This document shows, one piece after another, positions 4,289-56,391 of a stretch of 64,000 bases of DNA (the first letter of the stretch is position 1; the number at the start of each line of letters is the position of its first letter). The translations under genes and the position numbers were made by a program. The notes under the pieces were generated by a model, which was given only the letters and a program-made list of their open reading frames with translations, did not search any database and was not told where the DNA came from. This DNA comes from an uncultured bacterium (lineage in GTDB: Bacteria; Patescibacteriota; Minisyncoccia; UBA6257; GWB1-50-10). Location: positions 244,994 through 308,993 of the forward strand of contig CAVRNT010000001.1 in assembly GCA_963722655.1 (NCBI GenBank). The letters run 5' to 3'.

Positions 4289-7150
4289 TTGCGGTTTGCG
4301 GGCCGGCTTTTAGAATTGACTATGTCGTTTAAATTTCCAAATTCTATGTCCACCGCGAAGAGAGCCGCGCGCGCGGCAAAGGGAAAAGGGGAGGAGAAAA
4401 AGGTCTCGAAGCGGTTCGCCGTGCCGCTCAAGCGGTTCTTCACGCAGGCGAACGTCGACCCCTTCGACGAAGTGCGGTGGGTGAAGTGCGATGCGGTCGT
4501 CGGTAGCGGAGAAAAGAAGGTCTTCGAACAAAAGGACGTCGAGTTCCCGGATTTTTGGTCGCAGAACGCCGTGAACATCACGGTCGCGAAATATTTCCGC
4601 GGCCAGCTCGGCAAACCCGAGCGCGAAAACAGTTTGAGACAGATGATCGGCCGGGTCACCAACGTCCTGCGCGCCTGGGGCGAGCGCGGCGGTTACTTCA
4701 CCGGTCCCGGGCAAGCGCAGATCTTCGAGGACGAGCTCAAACATCTTTTGGTCCACCAGCAGGGTTCCTTCAATAGTCCGGTTTGGTTCAACGTCGGCTC
4801 GCGGGAGAACCCTCAATGTTCCGCCTGCTTCATTCTCAGGGTGGAGGACGAGATGAGCGACATCTTGGATTGGATCAAGACGGAAGGAATGATCTTCAAA
4901 GGCGGCTCCGGCGCGGGCGTGAATCTCTCGAACCTGCGTTCGAAGCTCGAACCGCTCTCTGGGGGCGGCTACGCCTCCGGTCCGGTCTCCTTCATGCGCG
5001 GGGCGGACTCCGTTGCCGGCATGATCAAGTCCGGCGGCACGACCCGCCGGGCGGCGAAGATGGTCGTGATGAACATCGACCATCCCGACGTGATAGATTT
5101 CATCCGCGCTAAAGCGGAGGAGGAGAAAAAAGTGCGGGCGCTCATGGAGGCCGGCTACAACATGGCGGATTTGAACAACGACGCCTGGAACTCCATCCAA
5201 TATCAGAACGCCAACAACTCCGTCCGCATCACCGACGACTTCATGGAGGCGGTCGAGAAGGACGGCGATTGGCAGACCCGCTTCCGCGTCTCGGGCAAAA
5301 TCGCCCAAACCTACAAGGCCCGCGAGGTCTTGGAGAAGATCGCCGAGGCGGCCTGGGAATGCGGCGACCCGGGCGTCCAGTTCGACACCATCATCAACAA
5401 GTGGCACACCTGCCCCTTGTCCGGCCGCATCAACGCCTCCAACCCCTGCAGCGAGTACATGCATTTGGACAACTCCGCCTGCAACCTGGCCTCGATCAAT
5501 CTTCTGAAGTTCTTGAACGCGGACGGCACCTTCGACGTCAAGGCCTTCAAGCAGGCGGTGGACGTCTTCATCTTGGCCCAAGAGATCATCGTCTCGGGCT
5601 CGAGCTACCCGACGGAGAAGATCGCCGAAAACGCGCATGATTTCCGGGAACTGGGGCTGGGCTTCGCCAATTTGGGGGCCCTCCTCATGACCAAAGGCCT
5701 GGCTTACGATTCCGAAGGCGCCAGGGCCTTAGCCGGGGCGATCGCCTCCTTGATGTCCGGCGAGGCCTACCGAATGTCATCGGAGATTGCCGCGCGCATC
5801 GGGCCTTTTGCCGGCTACGCCCTGAACCGCGAACTGATGCTCCGGGTCATCAAGATGCACGACGCGGAATCCAATAAGATAGATGCCGCCGTTTTGGACG
5901 ACAAAAAGCTGGGCGCCGAAGCCCGGAAGGTCTGGGACGAGGCGCTCGAGGCGGGCGAAAAGAACGGCTACCGCAACTCTCAGGTCACGGTCATCGCCCC
6001 GACGGGGACCATCTCCTTCATGATGGACTGCGACACGACGGGCATCGAACCGGATTTCGCCTTGGTCAAGATGAAGCAGCTCGTGGGCGGCGGCTGGATG
6101 AAGATCGTGAATGAGAGCGTCCCGCCGGCCTTGAAGAACCTAGGTTACGGCACGGCGGAGGCGAAGGCGATCATGGACTACGTGCGGGAAAGCGGCACGA
6201 TGGAAGGCGCGCCCGGATTCAAAGAGGAACATCTACCGATCTTCGACTGCGCCGTCCGCTCCGGCAAGGGGACGCGCTCCATTTCCTGGAGAGGCCACGT
6301 GCGCCTCGTGGGCGCGGTCCAGCCCTTCATCTCGGGCGCGATCTCGAAGACCTTCAACATGGCGAGCGACGTGACGAAAGAGGAGATCGAAGAGGCCTAC
6401 GTGATGGCCTGGAAGTTGGGCATCAAAGCCTTCGCCGTCTATCGCGACGGCTCCAAGGCGACCCAGCCCTTGAACACCTCTGAGAAGAAGGACGGTAAGA
6501 AAAGCGACAAGGCTCTCGGCGACGGCGTTTCCCGCCGGAAGTTGCCGACGACCCGAGTTTCCGAGACCCACAAGTTCGCCATCGTCGGCCACGAAGGCTA
6601 TCTGACCTACAGCATGTACGACGACGGGATGCCGGCCGAGATCTTCATCCGGATGTCGAAGCAAGGGAGCACGCTCTCGGGGCTCCTCGACGCCTTCGCC
6701 ATCTCGGTCTCGATGGCCCTCCAGTACGGCGTGCCCTTCAAGGCCTTGGCCCACAAGTTCATCTACAGTCGCTTCGAACCGGCGGGCTTCACCGAGAACC
6801 CCCAGATCCGGATCGCGACGAGCATCATCGACTACATCTTCCGCTACCTCGCTTTGCGGTTCATGACCGCCGAGGACCTCGCGGAGTTCGGAATGACCCA
6901 AGCCCTCGAGGGCCACGATGTCCATACCGTGAAATTGGAGGCGCCGAAGACGGTCGTGATCGACGCCAAACCCGCCGAGGTCGACGAAACCGCCAATGGT
7001 GGAGGCGAATCGCTCTATTCGGCGTCAGCGAATAAGTCGGGTACGGTGCTTGCCGAGACGGTCTGCAAGAACTGCGGCGGCATGATGGTCCGCACGGGCA
7101 CCTGTCTCACCTGCCTGCAGTGCGGCAGCTCGTCTGGCGGCTGCTCTTGA
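4289..7150 (+). CDS. nrdJ: adenosylcobalamin-dependent ribonucleoside-diphosphate reductase (class II RNR)
   Basis: 953 aa with class II RNR hallmarks (NSPVWFNVG, CSACF active-site region, C-terminal Cys-rich CKNCGG...CLTCLQCG tail); start may be the ATG at 4322. Confidence 0.85.
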   Translation: MRFAGRLLELTMSFKFPNSMSTAKRAARAAKGKGEEKKVSKRFAVPLKRFFTQANVDPFDEVRWVKCDAVVGSGEKKVFEQKDVEFPDFWSQNAVNITVAKYFRGQLGKPERENSLRQMIGRVTNVLRAWGERGGYFTGPGQAQIFEDELKHLLVHQQGSFNSPVWFNVGSRENPQCSACFILRVEDEMSDILDWIKTEGMIFKGGSGAGVNLSNLRSKLEPLSGGGYASGPVSFMRGADSVAGMIKSGGTTRRAAKMVVMNIDHPDVIDFIRAKAEEEKKVRALMEAGYNMADLNNDAWNSIQYQNANNSVRITDDFMEAVEKDGDWQTRFRVSGKIAQTYKAREVLEKIAEAAWECGDPGVQFDTIINKWHTCPLSGRINASNPCSEYMHLDNSACNLASINLLKFLNADGTFDVKAFKQAVDVFILAQEIIVSGSSYPTEKIAENAHDFRELGLGFANLGALLMTKGLAYDSEGARALAGAIASLMSGEAYRMSSEIAARIGPFAGYALNRELMLRVIKMHDAESNKIDAAVLDDKKLGAEARKVWDEALEAGEKNGYRNSQVTVIAPTGTISFMMDCDTTGIEPDFALVKMKQLVGGGWMKIVNESVPPALKNLGYGTAEAKAIMDYVRESGTMEGAPGFKEEHLPIFDCAVRSGKGTRSISWRGHVRLVGAVQPFISGAISKTFNMASDVTKEEIEEAYVMAWKLGIKAFAVYRDGSKATQPLNTSEKKDGKKSDKALGDGVSRRKLPTTRVSETHKFAIVGHEGYLTYSMYDDGMPAEIFIRMSKQGSTLSGLLDAFAISVSMALQYGVPFKALAHKFIYSRFEPAGFTENPQIRIATSIIDYIFRYLALRFMTAEDLAEFGMTQALEGHDVHTVKLEAPKTVVIDAKPAEVDETANGGGESLYSASANKSGTVLAETVCKNCGGMMVRTGTCLTCLQCGSSSGGCS

Positions 7151-7171: not shown

Positions 7172-7203
7172 AAAACCCGCCCGAAGAGGCGGGTTTTTTT
7201 GTC
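7172..7203. terminator. bidirectional rho-independent terminator shared by nrdJ and the convergent tRNA-Lys
   Basis: aaaaaCCCGCCcgaagagGCGGGttttttt: GC hairpin flanked by an A-run and a T-run. Confidence 0.75.
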
Positions 7204-7274
7204 CCCCGGACAGGATTCGAACCTGTGACCCACTGCTTAAAAGGCAGGTGCTCTACCAACTGAGCTACCGGGGG
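7202..7274 (-). tRNA. tRNA-Lys (anticodon TTT)
   Basis: The reverse complement folds as a cloverleaf CCCCCGGTAGCTCAGTTGGTAGAGCACCTGCCTTTTAAGCAG...GGTTCGAATCC...CCGGGGGA; anticodon loop CTTTTAA; CCA is not encoded. Confidence 0.85.
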
Positions 7275-7355: not shown

Positions 7356-7745
7356 TTGGGAGGCAACATGACCATAGATGAGCTAAGAGAGAAGGTCATT
7401 TTGAAGGCTCGGTCCGATGGATTGCGGATGGTCGGCATCCTGCGGCAGGATATCGTGGACGATATCCTCGTCTATCTTCAAGGCAAAGGATCTATATTCT
7501 TTTACCTCGAGACCGAAGCCTTTAGTTGGGCCGACCTCATAGACGGCGTTGATTTCTACATCGTAGTCATCAAAGAACGCTATATCGCCATTCCTATTTC
7601 GGTGACCGGCCCATTCTGGATAAAAAGCCATCTAGAACGTCATCCGGACGTGCCGGTGGTCTCCGTGGACCTGCGCAAGGGCCTGGCCAAGGCCAAAGCG
7701 CTCGCCACTAAGAGGATCTTGAGGATAATCGAAGCGGCGCGTTGA
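7356..7745 (+). CDS. hypothetical protein
   Basis: ORF of 125-129 aa with a GGAGG-like RBS (tgggaggcaacATG at 7368) and its own terminator; no recognised domain. Confidence 0.5.
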   Translation: MGGNMTIDELREKVILKARSDGLRMVGILRQDIVDDILVYLQGKGSIFFYLETEAFSWADLIDGVDFYIVVIKERYIAIPISVTGPFWIKSHLERHPDVPVVSVDLRKGLAKAKALATKRILRIIEAAR

Positions 7746-7962: not shown

Positions 7963-8034
7963 TCCCCGGTAGCTCAGTGGTAGAGCGGCGCTCTGTTAAA
8001 GCGATGGTCGTAGGTTCGAATCCTACCCGGGGAG
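7963..8034 (+). tRNA. tRNA-Asn (anticodon GTT)
   Basis: Cloverleaf TCCCCGG-TA-GCTC-AGTGGTA-GAGC-G-GCGCT-CTGTTAA-AGCGA-TGGTC-GTAGG-TTCGAAT-CCTAC-CCGGGGA-G; anticodon GTT is flanked by U33 and A37. Confidence 0.85.
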
Positions 8035-9618
8035 CATTACTGGATTTCGGGCATACAAATGCCCGATTTTCTTTTTATTCGCGTGCTTTTTAGCAGGTTC
8101 TAACCCTGCGGATATTTCTTGCGCTTCTTTTGCCGCAGTTTGTATCGGGAACAGCAGATTATCCAAAGAAACACTCAATTTTTTGTCTTTTAGGGTGAGG
8201 TCCGAACCTAACGCCATAAAAATCCCTTTTTTCACTTCCATATCCTTCGTGGTAGCGAATATCTGCCGGGCCTTCTCTGCGAAGTTAAGGCCGCGCTCAG
8301 CAATTTCAAGCCAGTTCTCAACGCGCTTATCCGTATCTTTAAGCAGTTCCTGAAGCCGCTCTTTCTCCGCGAGTATTGTTTCCTTCTTGCTTTTGAACTC
8401 GTCCTCGGTAATCTCGCCGTTGGCACGCATATCAATCAAATTGTCTCCTCTACGTACGCACGCCTCGTATTCACGCCTCTGGTTGCCGTAAATGCGCTCC
8501 CGGTCCTCAACCTCCTTCTCGTTCATCTGCCGCAATCGCGCCATCGCCCACTCCTTGAAATCGGTTGGGATTTCAAGCTTGGCAAGCTCGGCGGTAATCT
8601 GCTTTTCAAGCTCGTCCTTCTCTATGGCCTGTTGCGTGCAATTCGGGTCCCTGCGTTTGGTGCAGTGATAGTAGGTGTAGTGATGCACATTGCCGTTTTT
8701 CTGGTGCTTCATTTTTTCCTCGGCGGTAATCATCGCACCGCACTCGCCGCAATGTATCGGCCCGCGATATACGATGTCGCGCTTTTGCCCTCGCGGTTGC
8801 GAACGCCTGCCGAGCAGAAACTGTATCCGGTCATACTCCTCTCGCGTAATCATCGGCTTGTGTATGCCCTTATGCCATTCTCCGCTTCCCACCGGATATT
8901 CAAACTCCCCGTAATAGAATGGGCGGGTTAGAAGCAGATAGATATTACTTCTGCTAAAAGGTTTGCCGTTAGGCATACGAAGGCCCCAATCTTTCGTTGC
9001 TATCTCCAAAATGCGCGGCGGCGTGTATTTACCAGTAAGCATCAGGTCAAATATCTTCCGCACAATATCAAAACGCTCCGGGTCTTCGTGAATGGTTTTG
9101 TATCCTTTCTCCCCGTATTTATCGTTCAAGTAGCCAACGGGAGCCGGTGCAGGATAAATGCCCATACGCGCCTTCTGCCCTAGTCCGCGTTTCACATCGC
9201 GTCCTTTCTTTGCGCTCTCGTATTGCGATTGTGAGAGCGCCATTTGAAGCATCCAAATACCCTCGGGTGTGTTCTCAAAGTGATAGGTTGCGAGCTTGAG
9301 GTCTTCTATAACCCCAGTGCGTATCATATAGGTAATTTCGCCAGCGTCTTTCTCGTTGCGCGAGAGACGGTCTGGATGCCACGCAACCAATCCGGTCCGC
9401 TCGCCGCTTTTTATCCGTTCAAGCATATCCGCGAACGCGGGGCGATTGAACGGCTTGAACGCGCTCGCCTTATCTTCCACAAACTCAACGTCCAATTTTC
9501 CGAACACTTCATTGAGCTTGTCTTTCTGCGCGGGGATGGACAACGCTTGTCTCTCCTCGCCCTCGGTGGATTTTCTTACATACGCGAAGTATTTAATTTT
9601 ATTTGTGTCTTTACTCAT
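8023..9618 (-). CDS. large serine recombinase (serine integrase)
   Basis: MSKDTNKIKYFAYVRKSTEGEE gives the catalytic Ser in a resolvase-type N-domain, followed by a recombinase domain and a Cys-rich zinc ribbon (HCGECGA...YYHCTKRRDPNC) and a coiled-coil; about 531 aa; stop overlaps tRNA-Asn. Confidence 0.85.
   Translation of the reverse strand: MSKDTNKIKYFAYVRKSTEGEERQALSIPAQKDKLNEVFGKLDVEFVEDKASAFKPFNRPAFADMLERIKSGERTGLVAWHPDRLSRNEKDAGEITYMIRTGVIEDLKLATYHFENTPEGIWMLQMALSQSQYESAKKGRDVKRGLGQKARMGIYPAPAPVGYLNDKYGEKGYKTIHEDPERFDIVRKIFDLMLTGKYTPPRILEIATKDWGLRMPNGKPFSRSNIYLLLTRPFYYGEFEYPVGSGEWHKGIHKPMITREEYDRIQFLLGRRSQPRGQKRDIVYRGPIHCGECGAMITAEEKMKHQKNGNVHHYTYYHCTKRRDPNCTQQAIEKDELEKQITAELAKLEIPTDFKEWAMARLRQMNEKEVEDRERIYGNQRREYEACVRRGDNLIDMRANGEITEDEFKSKKETILAEKERLQELLKDTDKRVENWLEIAERGLNFAEKARQIFATTKDMEVKKGIFMALGSDLTLKDKKLSVSLDNLLFPIQTAAKEAQEISAGLEPAKKHANKKKIGHLYARNPVMLPG
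8045..8077 (+). terminator. tRNA-Asn terminator hairpin encoded inside the recombinase 3' coding region
   Basis: TCGGGCATacaaATGCCCGA followed by ttttcttttt. Confidence 0.55.
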
Positions 9619-9771
9619 ATGAAAAACCCGAAAGGGACGGTCTGGTTGACCCGATATGTGCAATCGCAAGGACTGACAGCATAGCGGCAGACCGCCCCTT
9701 CCGGGCCACTATGCTTTTTGGTAATAAAAATGCCTTGCGTGTCTTCGTACATAATCGGGTCAACATTATCA

Positions 9772-10959
9772 TTATACGCCGTTTTCCAATGAATCCAAGT
9801 TAATGGGCTCAAACCGCTTAAATGCCTCATCAATAAAGGCGATGGTATTGGAATATGGCAACCCGTGCGTAAGCTCGGCAGAGGCCTCAATTTTGCGCGT
9901 TAGGCGCTCGCTGTGGTCCGTATTCCATACGCTGAATATGGCTCTGCGCGTCTCCTTCGCTCCGTGGTCTTGTATGGTCCGCGCCAATCCGTAAGAAGTC
10001 AGCGCCCGGTTCATACTATGCGCCTCGCCGCCGAGCTTCTTCGCCTGTGAAAATATGTGCAAGAGCAATGCTAAGTCATCAGTGGGGCCAAGAAGCGCGA
10101 GCTGGTTTTCCGGCCGCCGGATAAGCCCGTGCCAAGAATTAAGTATTATTGTTTTGCAAAGGTTTGGGGTGAAAAGGTCTTTGAAAGCAATAAATGTTTT
10201 TGGATTTCTCCCCAGTGCGGCATTTATCTCGCGCATCACCGTCTGCCCCTTTTTAAGCCGGTATTCATACCGAAACACCTCTTGTTTCTGCAATCCAAAG
10301 CGTTCAATTATGGCTCGTTCGTAATCAATGCGCCCCTTATCTTTGCGTTTTATTTTCGGGCGCATAGCATCCGCAATTTTGTCGTAAAAAACCCGTTCAA
10401 CTGTGCCCGAGTAGATATGAAGCACCCGCCCGTTTTTGAACTCAACTTTTGTAATGTCCACTACCTTGCTTATATCCACGCGCTGGAGTTCCGCCAGTGC
10501 CTCCTGCATTCGTATGTCTCGTGGCAGTGGCACGTTCTTGCAGAAATGGACCGCCGAGACATAGGCACTAGCCACTATATTGCTCTCAATCGCTATACCA
10601 ACGCTATTTAGCGCTTCTTTGAAAGCGTAAAGCACCTTATCAAAATCAAGTTCGGACACCTCCTGCAAGCTGTTTCTATTAAGCAGTTTCGGTACCGAGA
10701 ACTCGGCCTTGAGGATATACCGCACGGCATCGCGGCTTTCGGTAAGCGCCTCAAGAACTTCTACTCTCGGCCGGTAGCCGTTCTGATAAGGCGGCTTCAA
10801 GATAAAACGCCGGAGGTAGGGATGGGTAGATTGCTGGGATTGTTTTTCGGTCTGCGAAAGCTGAAAATAATTACGTTTTGAGAACTCGGGTAGAAACCAC
10901 GATAGCTCCGTAATTTGAAACTTATCCGCTCCGTAGATTTTGATAATGACCGTATCCAT
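9772..10959 (-). CDS. hypothetical protein with Rep_trans-like motifs (rolling-circle replication initiator / MobT-type relaxase family, tentative)
   Basis: 395 aa; segments ...GRVLHIYSGTVERVFYDKI... and ...EVFRYEYRLKKGQ... resemble the Rep_trans motifs (YxGsr..lRiYdK and wRvEiElk); lies next to the integrase as in IMEs/ICEs. Confidence 0.45.
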   Translation of the reverse strand: MDTVIIKIYGADKFQITELSWFLPEFSKRNYFQLSQTEKQSQQSTHPYLRRFILKPPYQNGYRPRVEVLEALTESRDAVRYILKAEFSVPKLLNRNSLQEVSELDFDKVLYAFKEALNSVGIAIESNIVASAYVSAVHFCKNVPLPRDIRMQEALAELQRVDISKVVDITKVEFKNGRVLHIYSGTVERVFYDKIADAMRPKIKRKDKGRIDYERAIIERFGLQKQEVFRYEYRLKKGQTVMREINAALGRNPKTFIAFKDLFTPNLCKTIILNSWHGLIRRPENQLALLGPTDDLALLLHIFSQAKKLGGEAHSMNRALTSYGLARTIQDHGAKETRRAIFSVWNTDHSERLTRKIEASAELTHGLPYSNTIAFIDEAFKRFEPINLDSLENGV

Positions 10960-11065
10960 AGTCGTTTTTAATGTTGTCGGTGTTTTTCAAGGAATCCGCT
11001 CCGTAGATTTTGATAATGACCGTATCCATAGTCGTTTTTAATGTTGTCGGTGTTTTTCAAGGAAT
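10924..11065. repeat. perfect 70-bp tandem duplication (2 copies) covering the start and upstream of the Rep_trans-like gene and the 3' end of the 70-aa ORF
   Basis: 10926-10995 and 10996-11065 are identical (ccgctccgtagattttgataatgaccgtatccatagtcgtttttaatgttgtcggtgtttttcaaggaat). Confidence 0.95.
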
Positions 11066-11250
11066 CCTTTAGTGGTTGGCGCAGGATTTTGCGCGTTTTT
11101 TTGTTCGCTTGCGACTGCACGGCTTACCACTTCAACCAAACGGATAAGCCGCAAGCCCTTTTCAAGTGCCTGCTCCTTGGTTATCTCAACCCCAAAATGC
11201 TTTTTATAAAGCATCTGGAACTCGGAAATGTTTTTGTCGGTAAGGTCCAT
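11038..11250 (-). CDS. small hypothetical protein (70 aa)
   Basis: ORF MDLTDKNISEFQMLYKKHFGVEITKEQALEKGLRLIRLVE...; predicted helical and possibly DNA-binding; its C-terminus lies in the tandem repeat. Confidence 0.4.
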   Translation of the reverse strand: MDLTDKNISEFQMLYKKHFGVEITKEQALEKGLRLIRLVEVVSRAVASEQKNAQNPAPTTKGFLEKHRQH

Positions 11251-11367
11251 AGTTATTCGCTGTTCATTGCGTCCCTACCCTATATGCTGAAAAATCAGCG
11301 AAATAAAAAAACGTTGTAATAACGGGGGTTCTTGGATACGCTGGAAAGAAAAAAGCCTTCTGATTTT

Positions 11368-13275
11368 TCAGAGGGCTTCTTCCTCATCATCTTCCTCACC
11401 GCCTTCAATCGCCTCATTTTCATTAAACCTACCACCTTGAGGCCAGATTTCTTCTTTTCTTAAAACTGGTTCCGGTAATATGGCGAACTTTGGTTTATAG
11501 CGGTCGTGTATATCGTGGAATGGTTCATCGTTAGTTTTGAAAATCTCCTTTAACCACTTCACGAGTAATTTTTTCGCTTGCTGGACATTGTTCACAGATA
11601 AGGTTTTGTTTTTTGTAATCATTGGACGCATATTTTCTGCTGATGCATATTTGAAATCACTTGCCGATAGCGTGGATAAGGCACATAGAAAACCCCATTG
11701 CCGGTCTGGCTTCTGCTGGCGCTTACCGACAAAAAAACGAAGTTGAATGTAATCGGCAGTTATGATGTGGCTATTGTCATAAAAAATCTCAATCTCTTGC
11801 CGCCCTTCTTTTATCTTGAGTGTAACTTTCTCCCATTGGACCGGCTCTGGGAATGACAGCTCAATTGGCGACTCTCGCTTTTTACTCTTTGCATTAGGAG
11901 CTTCTCCTACAAATCTGACCGGCACTTCTGGCATAGCTGTGATTTCAATTTTCTGCACCGTTTGTTGAATCTGCTGGTTGTTTGGAGCAAAAGACATATT
12001 TTTGAGGCTCCTAACAATTGCTTCATCAAGTGCATCAATAATTTTTTTGCTTTTACCTTGCCATTTTTCTTCTGCCGAAATATCAATCAAATCCTTCTTC
12101 TCGCTACCGGCGACTCTCGTTGCGTTTGCAATACGCTCAATAAGCTTGGAGCTCTTCTTCATCTCTTTACTTATCTCTGTAGCGTCTGGTTTCAACGCAG
12201 ATATTTTGAGAAGAAATGCGCTTACGAGGTCTGAAGGACTTTCCGCTTTTTTTGCCTTCGCTTCAATATGAGCTGTTGCAAGTGAAGTAAATGGTCGCGC
12301 ATAGGTTTCTTTAAGGGGGTCAAGCTTGCCCCATTCTACCATCTCCTCAACTTTTCCAATGATTTCAAGATATAACCCCTCAAGCTCTTTATGGTCCAAA
12401 GCTTTATTATTTTCGTACGCGTTTACCAAAATAATCAATTGGCTCCAAAACACCCACAATCGCGCTATATCTTTAGGAGACCACACTTTATATGCCACCA
12501 GTTCAACATCTTTGCCATCCGAATCCGTCCACTCGTTAATCCCCAAATCCAACGCTTCTTCTGTGGGACCTATGTATAGTTTCCCATCTTTAATTTGTAT
12601 GCGGTCATATTTTAGCCATCCGTTATATTTCTCCTGCGTTTCTTTAGCTTTTGTCTCATCTCCCTCAAAAAATAATGGATGGACGGCTTCTTCAATGACT
12701 TTATATAAGGCCCGGCGGACCTTCTGGTTTGATGAGGTGTTTAACACTCGGAAAGCGCTGAAAAGCATCCTCCACTTGGTGTTTGGATACACAATAATCG
12801 TTGCTGGAGCACCACGCTCTTTAAGCAAATCAATAAGCTCTGGCCCAGTTTTGCGCTCGGCAATGTCTTTTGCAATAAGTTCAAGTGTTTGTGCGCGGAT
12901 TACCCCATCGTTATTCCTATCACTCAATAACTTCTTTATTTTCCCTCTGTCTGAAATGCGCAGATATGTCTTCAGAGGATGGACAGTTTCTATACCGCCG
13001 CTTTTGACAATTTCAACTTCAACCTTCATCCCCGGTCCCTTTTGCTCGGAGATTTTGATGCCACCCATATTTTCCAAGAAACGCCAGAATGAATTATTGT
13101 TTATCAGCGTCTCGGTGCTTTGGGGCTCGCCGGGGAAATGATTGATTATACTTACCTCGGTATCGGTTTCATCAGCCCAAGTTTTTTCGGCAATATCAAT
13201 AAGGCTTTCCAGATAGCGGAATATCTGGGGCGTAAAATCAAAGGGAAGTTTTTCTTTATCGTAGTAGAAGGCCAT
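11368..13275 (-). CDS. large hypothetical protein (about 635 aa), no recognisable domain, acidic C-terminal tail
   Basis: Long uninterrupted ORF in an AT-rich island (unlikely to be spurious at this GC); ATG at 13275 or TTG at 13320; ends ...EGGEEDDEEEAL; divergent from the Type III mod. Confidence 0.55.
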   Translation of the reverse strand: MAFYYDKEKLPFDFTPQIFRYLESLIDIAEKTWADETDTEVSIINHFPGEPQSTETLINNNSFWRFLENMGGIKISEQKGPGMKVEVEIVKSGGIETVHPLKTYLRISDRGKIKKLLSDRNNDGVIRAQTLELIAKDIAERKTGPELIDLLKERGAPATIIVYPNTKWRMLFSAFRVLNTSSNQKVRRALYKVIEEAVHPLFFEGDETKAKETQEKYNGWLKYDRIQIKDGKLYIGPTEEALDLGINEWTDSDGKDVELVAYKVWSPKDIARLWVFWSQLIILVNAYENNKALDHKELEGLYLEIIGKVEEMVEWGKLDPLKETYARPFTSLATAHIEAKAKKAESPSDLVSAFLLKISALKPDATEISKEMKKSSKLIERIANATRVAGSEKKDLIDISAEEKWQGKSKKIIDALDEAIVRSLKNMSFAPNNQQIQQTVQKIEITAMPEVPVRFVGEAPNAKSKKRESPIELSFPEPVQWEKVTLKIKEGRQEIEIFYDNSHIITADYIQLRFFVGKRQQKPDRQWGFLCALSTLSASDFKYASAENMRPMITKNKTLSVNNVQQAKKLLVKWLKEIFKTNDEPFHDIHDRYKPKFAILPEPVLRKEEIWPQGGRFNENEAIEGGEEDDEEEAL

Positions 13276-13399
13276 TGTAATTATTAACTTCAATCTACTG
13301 CTTTTTGCTGATTTTCTCAACGATTTTATGCTAAACTGAAATTACAACTAAATATGCGATAGAGGCCTAACCCCCGTGAGCAAAACTCCGAGGTATGGC

Positions 13400-13545
13400 A
13401 CACATAAGCCCCATCCCTGATACTAAACTCCGCGTTTAGCAACTCAGGGATGGGCTATGTCTCCGAAAGGAGGTGTAGGGCCGAAAGGTCTAGCTAGCGC
13501 GGAGTTTCGTGCTTCTCGCTAGCGACATAGCAACCCATCCCTCTA
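13400..13545 (+). promoter_or_regulatory. structured leader / operator region upstream of the Type III mod gene
   Basis: 11-bp stem CCCATCCCTGA/TCAGGGATGGG with a nested hairpin CTAAACtccgcGTTTAG; second hairpin GCTAGCG...CGCTAGC; AAACTCCGCG and CGCGGAGTTT are mutually complementary; CCCATCCCT occurs three times; strong AAGGAGGTG SD; 21-codon uORF 13457-13522. Confidence 0.4.
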
Positions 13546-15272
13546 TGTCCAAAAAATTAAAATCACAATCAACCATTCCGGCTGTAGCCGCTAAGCCGAA
13601 ATACGACAACTGGTCCAAAGAGCAACTTATTGACGAGGTGGCACGGCTTCGCAAGCGCAAGAAATACGGGCTTGTCTGGGAAGAAAAGCTAGAAAATGTC
13701 GTTGAGCAATGCAAGACAGAATTGCCGGTGCTCAAAGAAGTGAAAAATAAAGCGATTGCGAAAGATAAAAATGGCCCTGTGAACATTCTCATTGAGGGAG
13801 ACAATTACCACGCCTTATCGGTTTTGAATTACACCCACAAAGGCAAGATTGATGTCATCTACATTGACCCGCCATATAATACCGGCGCGCGTGATTGGAA
13901 ATACAACAACGATTATGTGGACGTTAACGACCAGTGGCGACATAGCAAATGGATTTTAATGATGGAGCATAGGTTACAACTGACAAAAAAACTTCTATCT
14001 CAAAACGGATTCATTATATGTGCAATTGACCATAACGAACTTTTCGCGCTTGGTCTTTTGATGGATGAGATTTTTGGTGAAAGTAATAGGTTGGGAACGA
14101 TTACAGTTGTGCACAAGCCAGAAGGAAGACAGTTCGCTAATTTCTTTAGTCCGTCAAATGAGTTTATGTTGGTGTATGCCAAAAATAGAACTTCGGCACA
14201 ATTTGAGAACATCGTTTTAAGTAAAGAGAAGGCGGATGAGTTTGACCTAGTAGATGAGAAGGGAAAGTACAAACTTCAGAACTTCATAAGATTGACTGAT
14301 GGTAAATATAGTTTGCGGAAAAATAAACCCGAGGGATATTACCCCATTTATGTAAGTAATGACTTAGCACATTTCAGTTTAACTAAAAAGAAGGGATACG
14401 ATGAAACACTGCCCATCACGAACAAGGGCGTGGAAAGAGTTTGGAAAACTTTTGGAGATACTTTTATGGATAAGGTAGGCAATGAGGCAATCGTGGCAAA
14501 AAGAGAAAACGGGAAAATAGTATTATACGAAAAATTAAGGCCGAGTGAAGTTCTGGTTACGCATTGGATTAAGAAACAGTATCACGGGTATCACTTTGGC
14601 ACGAAGTTATTAGAAACGATTTTAGGCAAAAAGTTGTTTGATTTCCCCAAATCTCTTTACTTGGTTCTAGATATTTTGAAACTTACCACAAGAAGAAACG
14701 CTATAATTTTAGATTTTTTCGCTGGCTCTGGCACTACTGGGCACGCTGTCCTTGAATTGAATAAGGAGGACGGTGGTAATCGCCGGTTTATTCTCTGCAC
14801 GAACAACGAAAATAACATCGCCACAGAAGTTTGTTATCCACGCGTAGCAAAAGTAATTGATGGATATAAAGATGCGGCGGGGAAAACAATTGCTGGTATC
14901 AAAAGCAATCTCAAATACTTCCGCACGGCATTTGTGGGCGCAGAGCCGAATGACAAAAACAAAGAAGCCCTAACTAAGAAGGCAACTGAAATGCTTTGTA
15001 TGCGCGAGGACACTTTTGAGTCGGTAAAAGAAACGGGTGCGGTAAAGATATTCAAAAACTCAAAACAGCATACCGGCATTATCTTTGATGAGGATGCTAT
15101 CCCTGCGTTAAAAAAAGAAATTGTGAAGATTGACGGCGCGTGGAGCATCTATATCTTCTCTCTTGGCGATGACACTTTTGAGGACGAGTTTGAGGATATG
15201 AAACAAAAGATAACCGTTGCGCCGATACCCGAGGCGATTTTGCGGGTCTACCGGCGCATATTCAAACCATAA
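13509..15272 (+). CDS. mod: Type III restriction-modification system methyltransferase (Mod), N6-adenine DNA methylase
   Basis: IYIDPPYNTG (DPPY motif IV), FAGSGTTG (motif I), ILIEGDNYHAL N-terminal motif typical of Type III Mod / Type IIG methylases; GTG start at 13509 (GGAG SD) or ATG at 13545. Confidence 0.8.
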   Translation: MLLASDIATHPSMSKKLKSQSTIPAVAAKPKYDNWSKEQLIDEVARLRKRKKYGLVWEEKLENVVEQCKTELPVLKEVKNKAIAKDKNGPVNILIEGDNYHALSVLNYTHKGKIDVIYIDPPYNTGARDWKYNNDYVDVNDQWRHSKWILMMEHRLQLTKKLLSQNGFIICAIDHNELFALGLLMDEIFGESNRLGTITVVHKPEGRQFANFFSPSNEFMLVYAKNRTSAQFENIVLSKEKADEFDLVDEKGKYKLQNFIRLTDGKYSLRKNKPEGYYPIYVSNDLAHFSLTKKKGYDETLPITNKGVERVWKTFGDTFMDKVGNEAIVAKRENGKIVLYEKLRPSEVLVTHWIKKQYHGYHFGTKLLETILGKKLFDFPKSLYLVLDILKLTTRRNAIILDFFAGSGTTGHAVLELNKEDGGNRRFILCTNNENNIATEVCYPRVAKVIDGYKDAAGKTIAGIKSNLKYFRTAFVGAEPNDKNKEALTKKATEMLCMREDTFESVKETGAVKIFKNSKQHTGIIFDEDAIPALKKEIVKIDGAWSIYIFSLGDDTFEDEFEDMKQKITVAPIPEAILRVYRRIFKP

Positions 15273-15275
15273 AAT

Positions 15276-54417: not shown

Positions 54418-56391
54418 ATGGGTGGAATGGATTGGAGAAGATCGCTGAACGACGCCCAGCGCCTGGCGGTCGAGACGACCGAAGGGCCGGTCCTCGTGAT
54501 CGCCGGCGCGGGTTCCGGCAAGACGCGGGTCATCGAATACCGCGTTTTGAATTTGCTCGAAAAGGGCGTCGCGCCCGAGGAGATCCTCCTTCTCACCTTC
54601 ACTAAAAAGGCGGCCCGAGCGATGCTCGAGCGCGCCGCTTCGCACGACGGCCGGGCGGCCTACGTCCAGGGCGGCACCTTCCACTCCTTCGCCTACGGAA
54701 TTTTGCGCCGGCATGGAGCGCGGCTCGGCATCTCAAGTCGGGCGACGGTCTTGGGCGAAGGCGATGCCCAAGAGGCGGTCGGCCGGGCGCTCACGCGCCT
54801 AGGCTTTGGCGGCAAAGGCGACGACCATTTCCCCAAGAAGGCGACGGTCGCGAGGATCTTGAGCGCCGCCCGGAATCGCGCGACGTCCATCGCGGAAGTT
54901 TTGGACGATGAATATCCGCATTTTGCCCAGTATGCCGGGCAGATCGAGGCGATTGGCGAGGAATACGCGCGGTACAAGAAGAAGTTCGGCTATTTGGATT
55001 ACGATGACCTTCTGGTTTTGACCGTTGAGCTCCTCCGCGATGATGAGGCGCGGGAACTCGTCGCCGGTAAGTACCGCTACATCATGGTGGACGAGTATCA
55101 GGACACGAACCCTGCCCAGGGCGAGATCACTGAGCTTCTGGGCCGTAGGCACCGGAACGTAATGGTCGTGGGCGACGACGCCCAGAGCATCTACCGCTTC
55201 CGCGGCGCCTCGCACGAGAACATCATGCGCTTCCCGGAAAAATTCTCCGGCTGCAAGGTCTTGAAGCTTGAGGATAATTACCGAAGCGTCCAGCCCATCC
55301 TGGACCTCGGGAACGCCATCCTCGCCGATATGCCGAAGAAGTTCGCGAAGACGCTCAGGGCCACGCGCCAAGGGAGAGAACCCCCTCAACTTCTTTATTT
55401 CGAGGATGCCGAGACGGAGGCGGAACATATCGTGGGCGAAGTTGTCTCTCTGAAGCGCCGAGGTGCCGGGCTCAAGGACCAAGCCGTCCTTTTTCGTTCC
55501 TCTTACATCTCGATCCCGCTCCAAGCGGCCCTCGCTCGGGCCGGAGTGCCTTTCCGCGTCTACGGCGGTCTCAAGTTCTACGAAATGGCCCATGTGAAGG
55601 ACGTCTTGGCCTTCCTCCGCGTCGCGGCGAACTCGAAGGACGAGATCTCCTGGCACCGTGTCCTCACGCTCCTCCCGGGCGTGGGGGAACGGACCGCGGC
55701 GGGGATCTATGCGGCGGTCTCCGGCGGTGGGCGCGGCACATTCCGCGAAAAATTAGAGAAGGCCTCCGGGAAAATCTCCGCCGATATGTTCAAGATAGTT
55801 TCCCTCTTGGACGAAGCCGCGGAGGACGCGCCCGGGAAGTCATTCCGCCTCATCCTCAAGGGTTATCTGCCCTTTATGCGCGAGAAGTTCGACGACTGGC
55901 CAATGCGCCTCGCCGACCTCGAGGTCCTTGCGGACATCGCGGAGGAGTACAAAAGCGCCCGCGACCTTTTGACCGATCTCGCCTTGGAGACGCCGGAGCG
56001 CGCGGAGCGGGGGAACGAGCACGAGGAAACGCTCACGCTCTCGACGATCCACTCCGCGAAGGGCTTGGAGTGGAAAGTGGTCTATCTCTTGGGTGTCGAG
56101 GAAGGGGTCCTACCATCCAAGATGGTAAGGAAGGACGAGGAGGTGGAGGAGGAAGAGCGCCTGCTCTACGTCGCCGTGACCCGCGCCAAGGATCGGCTGA
56201 CGCTTCTTTTTCACTTGGAAGGCCGGGAAAGTGGTAACTTACCGTTCAACCGGTTATCAAGATTCCTCACTCCGCCCGAGATCGGCGATCTTTTAGGCCA
56301 GCGCGACCTCTCGGGTCTCGGCCTCGCCGCGAAGATAAAGGCGGAGAATGAAAGTGATGGCCTGGAGACCGAGGATTTCGTGGATTATTAG
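54418..56391 (+). CDS. uvrD: ATP-dependent DNA helicase, UvrD/PcrA/Rep family
   Basis: AGAGSGKT Walker A, DEYQDTN, SF1 helicase motifs throughout 657 aa. Confidence 0.9.
   Translation: MGGMDWRRSLNDAQRLAVETTEGPVLVIAGAGSGKTRVIEYRVLNLLEKGVAPEEILLLTFTKKAARAMLERAASHDGRAAYVQGGTFHSFAYGILRRHGARLGISSRATVLGEGDAQEAVGRALTRLGFGGKGDDHFPKKATVARILSAARNRATSIAEVLDDEYPHFAQYAGQIEAIGEEYARYKKKFGYLDYDDLLVLTVELLRDDEARELVAGKYRYIMVDEYQDTNPAQGEITELLGRRHRNVMVVGDDAQSIYRFRGASHENIMRFPEKFSGCKVLKLEDNYRSVQPILDLGNAILADMPKKFAKTLRATRQGREPPQLLYFEDAETEAEHIVGEVVSLKRRGAGLKDQAVLFRSSYISIPLQAALARAGVPFRVYGGLKFYEMAHVKDVLAFLRVAANSKDEISWHRVLTLLPGVGERTAAGIYAAVSGGGRGTFREKLEKASGKISADMFKIVSLLDEAAEDAPGKSFRLILKGYLPFMREKFDDWPMRLADLEVLADIAEEYKSARDLLTDLALETPERAERGNEHEETLTLSTIHSAKGLEWKVVYLLGVEEGVLPSKMVRKDEEVEEEERLLYVAVTRAKDRLTLLFHLEGRESGNLPFNRLSRFLTPPEIGDLLGQRDLSGLGLAAKIKAENESDGLETEDFVDY

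What the first reader, a model, noticed from the sequence alone, without database searches (positions are those of the whole stretch)
9772..10959. 395-aa protein next to the integrase shows Rep_trans / MobT-like motifs
Two segments match the characteristic conserved blocks of the Rep_trans family, which includes pT181 RepC/RepD and the MobT relaxases of Tn916/ICEBs1-type elements:
- ...GRVLHIYSGTVERVFYDKI... matches Y-x-G-s-r...l-R-i-Y-d-K
- ...EVFRYEYRLKKGQ... matches w-R-v-E-i-E-l-k

Together with the serine integrase this would make the island an IME-like element able to replicate or be mobilised after excision.
Basis: inference. Interest (0 to 1): 0.55.

Follow-up and report, generated by a model that had tools for sequence, protein, structure and literature searches.

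The report
gpII-like initiator of CPR integrative elements
The 395-aa gene encodes an unclassified, distant relative of the DNA-nicking replication initiators of filamentous phages (gpII) and pT181-type plasmids (RepC/RepD); with the adjacent serine integrase it forms the conserved core of a widespread family of small integrated mobile elements in ultra-small CPR/Patescibacteria bacteria.

The parts
9772..10959 (-). 395-aa gpII-like (Rep_trans-fold) initiator. The catalytic crescent domain spans about residues 1-255 and the C-terminal all-helical domain about residues 260-395. Predicted catalytic Tyr192; K194, D197, R230, E232, D2 and H138 are conserved.
10972..10997 (-). Conserved cis motif GGATTCCTTGAAAAACACCGACAACA, proximal copy; the conserved TTCC core begins 35 nt upstream of the rep ATG. 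Candidate binding or nick site (ori/oriT) and/or operator for the initiator.
11042..11067 (-). Second, identical copy of the motif, created by the 70-bp duplication. It overlaps the last codons of p70.
10924..11067 (.). Perfect 70-bp tandem duplication (2.06 copies). It covers the last 27 nt of p70, its stop codon, the 8-nt spacer and the first 32 nt of rep. The junctions fall at GGAT microhomology, and the upstream rep start reads into a 36-codon frameshifted ORF.
11038..11250 (-). p70, a small helical protein of unknown function. It is the conserved upstream partner of the initiator (about 60% of loci) and has a conserved core of about 45 aa.
9616..9774 (-). Conserved structured non-coding element that fills the rep-stop to int-ATG spacer. 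It has an outer stem P1, inner stems P2 and P3, and an apical loop that pairs with a 3' tail next to the int start (a pseudoknot or an alternative fold).
8023..9618 (-). Large serine recombinase (integrase), 531 aa from the ATG at 9618. Its 3' end overlaps the 3' end of tRNA-Asn.
7963..8035 (+). tRNA-Asn(GTT). This is the integration junction at one end of the island.
11368..13320 (-). p650, an accessory protein of unknown function. Its C-terminal ~170 aa are shared with the C-terminus of an RVT_1 (reverse transcriptase) protein that occupies the same position in the closest relatives.
13509..17513 (+). Cargo: a Type III restriction-modification system, Mod (13509-15272) and Res (15276-17513).
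17562..18461 (+). Cargo: a SocA/Panacea-domain antitoxin-like gene (17562-18038) and its partner (18054-18461, weak NsnC-like hit).

Best explanation
The gene encodes a metal-dependent DNA nicking-joining enzyme that uses a tyrosine nucleophile. It has the crescent fold of the Rep_trans superfamily and is a distant, unclassified branch of the filamentous-phage gpII ('II/X') initiators. It is the replication or DNA-processing module of a roughly 12-kb integrative element inserted at tRNA-Asn. Proposed cycle: (1) the adjacent large serine integrase excises the island as a circle; (2) the initiator binds, probably through its C-terminal helical domain, and nicks one strand at a cognate site, most likely the 26-nt motif conserved just upstream of its own start codon, becoming covalently linked to the 5' end through Tyr192 (predicted metal ligands D2, H138, E232); (3) the free 3'-OH primes rolling-circle synthesis by host polymerase and a PcrA/UvrD-type helicase, which maintains or amplifies the excised circle and yields single-stranded copies that could also be exported; (4) the enzyme rejoins the displaced strand. 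The structured element between rep and int either sets integrase expression relative to rep translation or acts as a single-strand origin. Shown here: fold, homology, conservation of catalytic residues, synteny with the integrase, the two conserved cis elements, and chromosomal integration. Inferred: nicking activity, the identity of the nick site, excision, replication, and the role of the spacer element.
Against: The window protein itself has no Pfam, NCBIfam, PHROGs or PADLOC hit. The strand-6 Asp that binds the metal in Rep_trans aligns to His138, and the Arg at -2 from the Tyr is absent, so the chemistry may differ. No circular (excised) copy was found among 53 plus 16 complete contigs, and every long contig shows the element integrated. 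The motif sits at a nearly fixed distance from the ATG (32-35 nt in 71 of 81 loci), which would also fit a purely regulatory site. The closest relatives, L009 and L011, lack the spacer element. The far end of the island and its att sites were not mapped. No 3D coordinates were available to check the active-site geometry.
Confidence: 0.65

Rival explanations
1. The protein acts mainly as a conjugative relaxase (a functional analogue of MOBT). It nicks an oriT, possibly the upstream motif, and pilots the excised island as ssDNA through the host's chromosomal MPF_FATA-type T4SS. The islands would then be true IMEs. This is not exclusive of a replication role.
For: In Firmicutes, MPF_FATA systems work with Rep_trans-fold relaxases that double as replication initiators, and many streptococcal IMEs carry only an RCR-type relaxase plus an integrase, some of them serine integrases and some with no coupling protein (PMC5704250). 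[quoted passage not shown] The island has no T4SS or coupling protein of its own. The family escapes PF02486, so it may be missed by the relaxase profiles used in that survey; this was not tested here.
Against: The closest family is phage gpII, which is a replication initiator and not a relaxase. The protein has no N-terminal HTH domain of the kind described for MobT relaxases (my knowledge; secondary structure). No coupling protein or T4SS gene lies near it in any locus examined, and the 64-kb window has none. There is no evidence that the Patescibacteria T4SS transfers DNA.
Confidence: 0.2
2. The island is an integrated filamentous phage (inovirus-like prophage) or a remnant of one, and the protein is simply its gpII replication protein.
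For: gpII is the closest family, across both the N-terminal and the 'X' regions. Inoviruses have been predicted in CPR hosts and can carry serine recombinases (PMC6813254). The filamentous phage phiRSM integrates into a tRNA 3' end using a serine recombinase (PMC3218068). Two unnamed viral proteins match the model by Foldseek at E about 1e-05.
Against: No pI/Zot-like ATPase, coat protein or other phage structural hit appears in the island. The conserved core across about 100 loci is only DUF5659-p70-rep-int, and the rest is variable defence cargo. There is no relative among 2.9 million IMG/VR contigs and no tblastn hit in 50,697 phage records.
Confidence: 0.07
3. The protein no longer cleaves DNA. 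It would be a domesticated sequence-specific DNA-binding protein, for example a regulator or directionality factor for the neighbouring integrase, acting at the conserved upstream motif.
For: The strand-6 acidic metal ligand is replaced by His, and the Arg at -2 is missing. The motif lies at a fixed distance from the ATG, as an operator would. No episomal form was detected. The gene is tightly coupled to int.
Against: The nucleophile Tyr, the Lys at +2, the strand-11 Arg-x-Glu and the strand-1 Asp are invariant or at least 90% conserved across sequences as divergent as 21% identity. That pattern is expected for catalysis, not for binding alone. His can also serve as a metal ligand.
Confidence: 0.08

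Closest known systems
Filamentous-phage gpII / 'II/X family' replication initiators (Pfam PF05144 Phage_CRI + PF05155; M13/f1 gene II protein)
   Same: The profile-profile match gives E 5.5e-07 over 253 columns covering both the catalytic and the C-terminal regions. Motif spacing is nearly identical (2/83/135/175/189/228 against 3/89/139/177/194/241). Equivalents of Y197, K199, E202, R243 and E245 are all conserved. Both proteins begin directly with strand 1 (MDT.. and MID..) and both lack the Arg at -2 from the Tyr.
   Different: The window protein does not reach any PF05144 threshold, and only 28 of 121 relatives do. Identity is about 15%. The strand-6 Asp is replaced by a conserved His. The genetic context is an integrative element with a large serine integrase and defence cargo in Patescibacteria, not a phage genome with coat and assembly genes. 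No internal gene-X-type start was examined.
pT181-family RepC/RepD and RepSTK1 (Pfam PF02486 Rep_trans; PDB 4cwc, 4cij)
   Different: There is no PF02486 hit. R189 (the -2 Arg) is absent. Strand-6 RxDxAxD is replaced by AVHFCKN. The strand-9/10 hairpin is 4 residues shorter, and there is a 17-residue insertion before strand 11. The protein is chromosomally integrated rather than plasmid-borne (no hit in 72,556 plasmids).
MOBT relaxases (NicK of ICEBs1, Orf20 of Tn916, RelSt3 of ICESt3) and streptococcal IMEs with RCR-type relaxases
   Same: In both cases a protein of the Rep_trans-fold superfamily serves an integrated element, and such proteins act as both relaxase and replication initiator. 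Some of these IMEs have a serine integrase and no coupling protein (PMC5704250).
   Different: This is not a PF02486 member. It has no N-terminal HTH domain and no adjacent TcpA/FtsK-like coupling protein or T4SS genes. The hosts are Patescibacteria, not Firmicutes.
Actinomycete integrative and conjugative elements (pSAM2-type AICEs) and phage phiRSM
   Same: These are small tRNA-integrated elements that combine an integrase with a rolling-circle initiator used after excision. phiRSM pairs a filamentous-phage replication module with a serine recombinase at a tRNA 3' end (PMC3218068).
   Different: AICEs use RepSA-type or other initiators and carry an FtsK-like Tra protein. phiRSM is a complete phage with a small resolvase-type recombinase. 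Here there is neither a tra gene nor virion genes, and the recombinase is a large serine integrase.

Membership tests
Rep_trans (PF02486) | Match to the PF02486 profile at or above the gathering score | tested here: not met
   No hit even at E<=10 for the window protein. Only 4 of 121 relatives hit, best E 5e-05.
Rep_trans (PF02486) | Crescent-shaped pseudo-twofold beta-sheet catalytic domain | tested here: met
Rep_trans (PF02486) | Strand-10 catalytic Tyr with Lys at +2 and an acidic or amide residue at +5 (RepD Y191, K193, E196) | tested here: met
   Y192 and K194 are invariant, and D197 is at least 90% conserved in A1.
Rep_trans (PF02486) | Arg at -2 from the catalytic Tyr (R189) | tested here: not met
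   Position -2 is V190. The Arg lies at -3 and is not conserved.
Rep_trans (PF02486) | Strand-6 R-x-D-x-A-x-D motif (R140, D142, A144, D146; D142 is a metal ligand) | tested here: not met
   The aligned segment is A136-V-H138-F-C140-K-N142. H138 and N142 are conserved.
Rep_trans (PF02486) | Metal ligands on strand 1 (D46) and strand 11 (E214), with R212 | tested here: met
   D2 is at least 90% conserved, E232 is invariant, and R230 is at least 90% conserved. This rests on sequence only; 3D proximity was not checked.
gpII / Phage_CRI (PF05144 + PF05155) | Match to the PF05144 profile at or above the gathering score | tested here: not met
   The window protein has no hit. Its relative P0101 (60% identity) scores 26.0 bits against a cutoff of 21.7, and 28 of 121 relatives hit at E<=0.01.
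gpII / Phage_CRI (PF05144 + PF05155) | Homology to gpII across the N-terminal and C-terminal (X) regions | tested here: met
   hhalign of A2 against A4 gives probability 92.3% and E 5.5e-07; window residues 79-357 align with gpII 85-364.
gpII / Phage_CRI (PF05144 + PF05155) | Family-invariant residues Y197, K199, E202, R243 and E245 | tested here: met
   These align to Y192, K194, D197, R230 and E232.
gpII / Phage_CRI (PF05144 + PF05155) | Encoded in a filamentous-phage genome (coat proteins, pI/Zot ATPase) | tested here: not met
   There are no such genes in the island or in the conserved core. IMG/VR and the phage collection give no hits.
MOBT relaxases | PF02486 domain preceded by an N-terminal HTH domain (the feature is from my knowledge of RelSt3 and NicK) | tested here: not met
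   There is no PF02486 or HTH hit, and the model starts with strand 1 at residue 3.
MOBT relaxases | Encoded beside a TcpA/FtsK-like coupling protein and an MPF_FATA T4SS | tested here: not met
   No such genes occur in the island, in the other large window ORFs scanned (the remaining ORFs of the 64-kb window were not scanned), or in any neighbouring gene set.
MOBT relaxases | Site- and strand-specific nicking of an oriT, required for transfer | not testable with these tools
   This needs biochemistry or genetics. A candidate site exists.
Integrative and mobilizable element (IME) | Own integrase and integration at a specific site | tested here: met
   A large serine recombinase abuts tRNA-Asn, and relatives sit at other specific sites, including tRNAs.
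Integrative and mobilizable element (IME) | Defined attL and attR ends | tested here: inconclusive
   One end lies at the tRNA-Asn 3' end. No repeat of that end was found (expected for serine integrases), so the far end is placed at about 20.1 kb from GC content only.
Integrative and mobilizable element (IME) | Own relaxase/oriT but no mating-pore genes; mobilised by a helper | tested here: inconclusive
   A candidate relaxase-type protein and a candidate site are present and there is no T4SS. Mobilisation cannot be tested here.

The most novel reading that the evidence does not exclude
This family may be the 'very different relaxase' that a 2025 survey of Patescibacteria T4SSs could not find. 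It is a gpII-like, Rep_trans-fold nickase that escapes PF02486 and so may escape relaxase profiles. It would mobilise small serine-integrase islands loaded with defence genes, through the near-universal chromosomal MPF_FATA T4SS of CPR bacteria, with the conserved 26-nt motif as oriT. The covarying rep-int spacer would be a new cis-regulatory RNA, or a single-strand origin, that couples integrase expression to initiator translation.
Probability: 0.2. Interest if true: 0.85.

Novelty: new variant of a known kind. Interest (0 to 1): 0.62.

Why it matters
CPR/Patescibacteria make up a large share of bacterial diversity, yet their mobile elements are almost undescribed. My literature searches found no description of integrative elements with a serine integrase or a rolling-circle initiator in this group. 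This analysis defines a large protein family (929 clusters at 50% identity) that no source names. It is a deep branch of the gpII/Rep_trans nickases and the core, with a large serine integrase, of a recurrent island type that carries restriction-modification systems, reverse transcriptases and toxin-antitoxin cargo between CPR genomes. It provides two precisely delimited conserved cis elements that can be tested directly in vitro. It also bears on an explicit open question: why nearly all Patescibacteria keep a conjugation-type T4SS when relaxases seem to be absent (PMC12102498). If the protein nicks the conserved motif, that question becomes experimentally tractable. The compact rep-int module and its motif could also seed genetic tools for organisms that currently have none.

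Tried and rejected
1. Single-sequence searches of the window protein against Pfam, NCBIfam, PHROGs, PADLOC and PDB sequences found nothing, apart from spurious uS4 matches to the basic 205-255 segment.
3. hhalign of the narrow profile A1 against single gpII or RepC sequences was uninformative. A2 against RepC aligned only one motif. The RepC homolog search returned only sequences at least 81% identical, so it could not make a useful profile.
4. tblastn against phages and plasmids, and a scan of IMG/VR, found no relatives. The A2 alignment was too diverse for pattern scanning.
5. The 70-bp tandem repeat as an iteron or hairpin origin: rejected. It is a two-copy perfect duplication that includes coding sequence.
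6. A direct repeat of the tRNA-Asn 3' end to mark the far island end: none found.
7. Circular episomal contigs: 0 of 69 tested.
8. A conserved origin-like motif upstream of p70: that region is mostly coding (DUF5659 gene) in relatives.
9. The upstream motif as a canonical sigma-70 promoter: no such site is predicted there, and the TTGAAA to A-rich box spacing is only 13-14 nt (and inspection).
10. The spacer element as a known RNA: no Rfam hit. As an indispensable origin: it is absent from about 40% of loci, including the closest relatives.
11. p650 as a coupling ATPase: it has no family hit, and I saw no Walker A motif on inspection.

Full report
OBSERVATION. The ORF at 9772..10959 (minus strand, ATG start, 395 aa) exists as described. 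It contains both quoted segments: GRVLHIYSGTVERVFYDKI at residues 177-195 and EVFRYEYRLKKGQ at residues 227-239. It lies in a low-GC stretch (0.39-0.50 against about 0.60 in the flanks) running from about 8.0 to 20.1 kb. It sits directly upstream, in gene order, of a large serine recombinase with Resolvase, Recombinase and Zn_ribbon_recom domains. The last codons of that recombinase overlap the 3' end of tRNA-Asn at 7963-8035.

The window protein has no Pfam hit at all, not even to PF02486 at E<=10. NCBIfam, PHROGs, PADLOC and PDB sequences return only noise. Read literally, the stated refutation criterion is met. A single-sequence miss does not exclude remote homology, so I tested further.

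FAMILY. The protein has 260 word-indexed homologs, none named by any source. An exhaustive profile search finds 929 cluster representatives at 50% identity with E<=1e-3, and 686 with E<=1e-10. In a 121-sequence alignment spanning 21-57% identity to the window protein, N142, Y192, K194 and E232 are invariant. D2, T3, S88, P90, K91, H138, K141, N176, G177, D193, R230 and R234 are at least 90% conserved. Genome-resolved loci are Patescibacteria (Adlerbacteria, Kaiserbacteria, Paceibacteria, Nomurabacteria, Saccharibacteria, Giovannonibacteria, Sungiibacteriota), including the closed 0.99-Mb chromosome CP060229.1. The one exception is a truncated copy in a Bacteroidota-labelled MAG.

ACTIVE SITE. 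RepC, reconstructed from pT181, reproduces the residue numbers of the structure paper (D46, R140, D142, A144, D146, T176, Y178, G180, R189, Y191, K193, E196, R212, E214). Six motifs are collinear in the window protein, RepC and M13 gpII: strand 1 (MDT / ..FDAM.. / MID), IEFxxPxKL, strand 6, N-G-x5-Y-x-G, Y-x-K-x-x-[DE], and R-x-E. Y192 aligns with gpII Y197 and RepC Y191. K194, D197, R230 and E232 align with residues invariant in gpII (K199, E202, R243, E245) and with RepC K193, E196, R212 and E214. D2 matches the strand-1 metal ligand. Two Rep_trans features are missing. The Arg at -2 from the Tyr is absent, as it is in gpII. The strand-6 RxDxAxD reads A136-V-H138-F-C140-K-N142, so the metal-binding Asp (RepC D142, gpII D143) is replaced by a conserved His. 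I infer a D2/H138/E232 metal site. This could not be checked in 3D because no coordinates are exposed.

CLASSIFICATION. The protein belongs to the Rep_trans-fold superfamily and is closest to the gpII ('II/X') initiators, but it lies outside both Pfam models. It is not MobT-like in architecture: it has no N-terminal extension or HTH domain, and no neighbouring coupling protein or T4SS.

CONTEXT. Synteny is strongly conserved across about 100 loci from genomes and metagenomes: [variable accessory gene] - [DUF5659 gene] - [p70] - [initiator] - [sometimes a small ORF or HTH_17] - [large serine recombinase] - host genes. A homolog of the window's integrase lies directly downstream in about 29 of 36 and 36 of 52 loci with enough sequence. 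These are lower bounds, because more divergent serine recombinases such as the one in L001 escape the phmmer threshold. p70 lies directly upstream in about 24 of 36 and 35 of 59 loci. The cargo is variable and rich in defence genes: Type III R-M in the window and in many relatives, reverse transcriptases, and toxin-antitoxin-like pairs. The integration sites differ between loci (tRNA genes, ychF, dnaX, rluA-like), as expected for serine integrases. There are no capsid, coat, Zot-like, T4SS or coupling-protein genes in the window island. The other large window ORFs scanned are ordinary chromosomal genes and include a UvrD/PcrA-type helicase. No relative occurs in 50,697 phage records, 72,556 plasmids or 2.9 million IMG/VR contigs. 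None of 69 complete contigs tested is circular. The elements are thus seen only in the integrated state.

CIS ELEMENT 1, THE UPSTREAM MOTIF. That repeat (10924-11067) is a perfect 70-bp duplication in 2.06 copies. It covers the last 27 nt of p70, its stop codon, the 8-nt spacer and the first 32 nt of rep, with junctions at GGAT microhomology. It is not an iteron array. While comparing p70 tails I noticed that the same DNA is read in different frames in different loci: GFLEKHRQH in some, DSLKSTDNIKN in others. Aligning the -90..+20 region around the rep ATG from 84 non-redundant loci reveals a motif, GG[AGT]TTCCTTGAAA-N3-ACCGACAACA, with a variant GGATTCCAAGAAATTT..[GC]ACAACA in the most divergent clade. 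It is present in 81 of 84 loci at about 2 bits per position, against 0-0.3 bits just upstream, and it begins 32-35 nt before the ATG in 71 of 81 loci. All 94 matches in 1.19 Mb of locus sequence, both strands, lie on the sense strand immediately upstream of rep. The window holds exactly two copies (the duplicated pair) where 0 are expected by chance. The duplication begins exactly at the motif's 5' edge, and L041 has an independent tandem duplication of the same motif. No sigma-70-type promoter is predicted at the motif. The motif shares the words GTTCC[AT][AT] and GAACAACA with the gpII-binding core of the M13 origin. That resemblance is too short to quantify and I treat it only as a lead. 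This motif is the best candidate for the initiator's cognate site (ori or oriT, possibly doubling as an operator).

CIS ELEMENT 2, THE REP-INT SPACER. The 159 nt from the rep stop codon to the integrase ATG (9616-9774, minus strand) form a nested structure. There is an outer stem P1 (GTTGACCCGAT.ATGT / ACATATCGGGTCAAC) and inner stems P2 and P3. The apical loop (CCCGGAAGGGGCGGTCTG) is complementary to a 3' tail (CAGACCGTCCCTTTCGGG) that ends 10 nt before the int ATG. The same architecture recurs in at least 22 loci in sequence-divergent flavours, for example loop GGGCAACCTTG with tail CAAGGTTGCCC. On a plain MAFFT alignment of 20 spacers, RNAalifold picks the loop-tail helix. For P1 plus the loop-tail helix, 93.6% of cells pair, against 77.4% in shuffles and 35-53% when partners are slid. 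Of 26 pairs, 17 show double compensatory changes, and the covariation score is 0.477 against 0.186, reached by 0 of 500 shuffles. Non-Watson-Crick cells are 37 G.U-type against 4 A.C-type, so it is the gene-sense strand that folds as a single strand. There is no Rfam match. A covariance model finds exactly one copy per locus, always in this spacer, and none in about 40% of loci, including the closest relatives L009 and L011, where rep and int abut. With DNA parameters the P1-P2-P3 rod is the minimum free energy fold (-31.3 kcal/mol, z -5.2). With RNA parameters the long loop-tail helix wins (-57 kcal/mol). P1 always starts about 9-10 nt after the rep stop codon, and the tail ends 1-18 nt before the int ATG. 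That fits an RNA switch coupling int translation to rep translation. A single-strand origin on the displaced sense strand is the alternative. I cannot decide between them.

MECHANISM AND RIVALS. The best-supported reading (confidence 0.65) is a Tyr192-dependent nicking-joining initiator that acts on the excised island to start rolling-circle replication, with host polymerase and a PcrA/UvrD-type helicase. ICEBs1 and Tn916 are precedents, since their Rep_trans-type proteins serve as both relaxase and initiator (PMC5704250). A relaxase role (0.2, not exclusive) is attractive. Patescibacteria almost universally carry an MPF_FATA T4SS, but relaxases were detected in only 103 genomes, and the authors left open that very different relaxases remain to be found (PMC12102498). 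An integrated inovirus (0.07) is disfavoured by the absence of any morphogenesis genes and of any viral-database relatives, even though inoviruses are predicted in CPR (PMC6813254) and phiRSM pairs such a module with a serine recombinase at a tRNA (PMC3218068). A non-catalytic domesticated binder (0.08) is disfavoured by the invariance of the catalytic constellation.

NOVELTY. My literature searches found no description of this family or of these elements. It is a new, deep branch of a known superfamily, in a new host group and genetic context, with two new cis elements. I therefore rate it a new variant of a known kind, of moderate to high interest.

Noticed in passing
window 9616-9774 (minus strand); L015:7180-7320, L023:4792-4951 and 18 other loci: A conserved, covarying structured element fills the rep-stop to int-ATG spacer. 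It has a P1 stem plus a loop-tail helix in pseudoknot topology, and 17 of 26 pairs show double compensatory changes. G.U wobbles outnumber A.C wobbles, so the sense strand folds. There is no Rfam match. It could be a translational coupling switch for the integrase or a single-strand origin.
   Followed up: yes
window 10972-10997 and 11042-11067 (minus strand); upstream of rep in 81 of 84 loci: A 26-nt motif, GG[AGT]TTCCTTGAAA-N3-ACCGACAACA, is conserved as DNA (read in different frames, coding or non-coding) 32-35 nt upstream of the rep ATG. All 94 hits in 1.19 Mb of loci are at that position.
   Followed up: yes
window 10924-11067; L041 about 45-85 nt upstream of the rep ATG at 6001: The window's perfect 70-bp duplication starts exactly at the 5' edge of the motif (GGAT|TCCTTG) and ends at GCGGAT|AAG inside rep codons 10-12. 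L041 has an independent tandem duplication (GGATTCCAAGAAATTTTAG, two copies). Recurrent duplication at this site could reflect slippage, initiator-mediated illegitimate recombination, or, in the window, an assembly artefact.
   Followed up: partly
window 11368-13320 (minus strand); L043:2946-5219: The C-terminal ~170 aa of p650 (residues 478-649) are homologous (E 1e-66) to the C-terminus of a 757-aa RVT_1 reverse-transcriptase protein at the same position in the closest relative elements, while the N-terminal parts differ. It is a modular accessory gene of unknown function with a shared C-terminal domain.
   Followed up: partly
L001, L005, L043-L047 upstream of p70; window 11251-11367: Most relatives carry a DUF5659 (PF18903) gene immediately upstream of p70. 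The window's element lacks it and has 117 nt of non-coding DNA there instead, following a terminator-like hairpin after p650.
   Followed up: no
window 8023-9669: The ORF list starts the integrase at TTG 9669. Conservation of the spacer element and of the N-terminus (MSKDTNKIKYFAYVRKS) across loci puts the real start at ATG 9618. The gene's last 13 nt overlap the tRNA-Asn 3' end, and its C-terminal codons run through a terminator-like hairpin (8044-8075).
   Followed up: partly
window 21585-21980 (minus strand): A 131-aa HTH_17 / excisionase-like protein lies about 1.5 kb beyond the low-GC island, after cold-shock and MGMT-like genes. In some relatives (L001, L003) an HTH_17 gene sits between rep and int. 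It is unclear whether this one belongs to the island or serves as a directionality factor.
   Followed up: no
window 54418-56391 (plus strand): The chromosome encodes a UvrD/PcrA-type helicase, the class of host helicase that Rep_trans initiators recruit.
   Followed up: no
L045 and L047 contig ends; L044 and L046: Several metagenome contigs carrying the element break at or just after the integrase gene, and two end inside tRNA-like sequence. This suggests recurrent tRNA-adjacent integration and population heterogeneity at the junction.
   Followed up: partly
L038 (JBLHQB010000023.1, labelled Patiriisocius sp.): The only non-CPR-labelled genome hit is a truncated copy (query residues 1-310) in a Bacteroidota MAG. 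It could be binning contamination or a decayed horizontal transfer.
   Followed up: no
BFVD entries A0A345MVG1 and A0A345MSC1: Two viral proteins with no name in the available tables match the model by Foldseek (E 1.4e-05 with TM 0.50/0.54, and E 5.4e-05). Their viruses could not be identified with these tools.
   Followed up: no
window 7356-7745 (plus strand): A 129-aa ORF with no family hit lies between tRNA-Lys (7201-7274) and tRNA-Asn, just outside the island.
   Followed up: no
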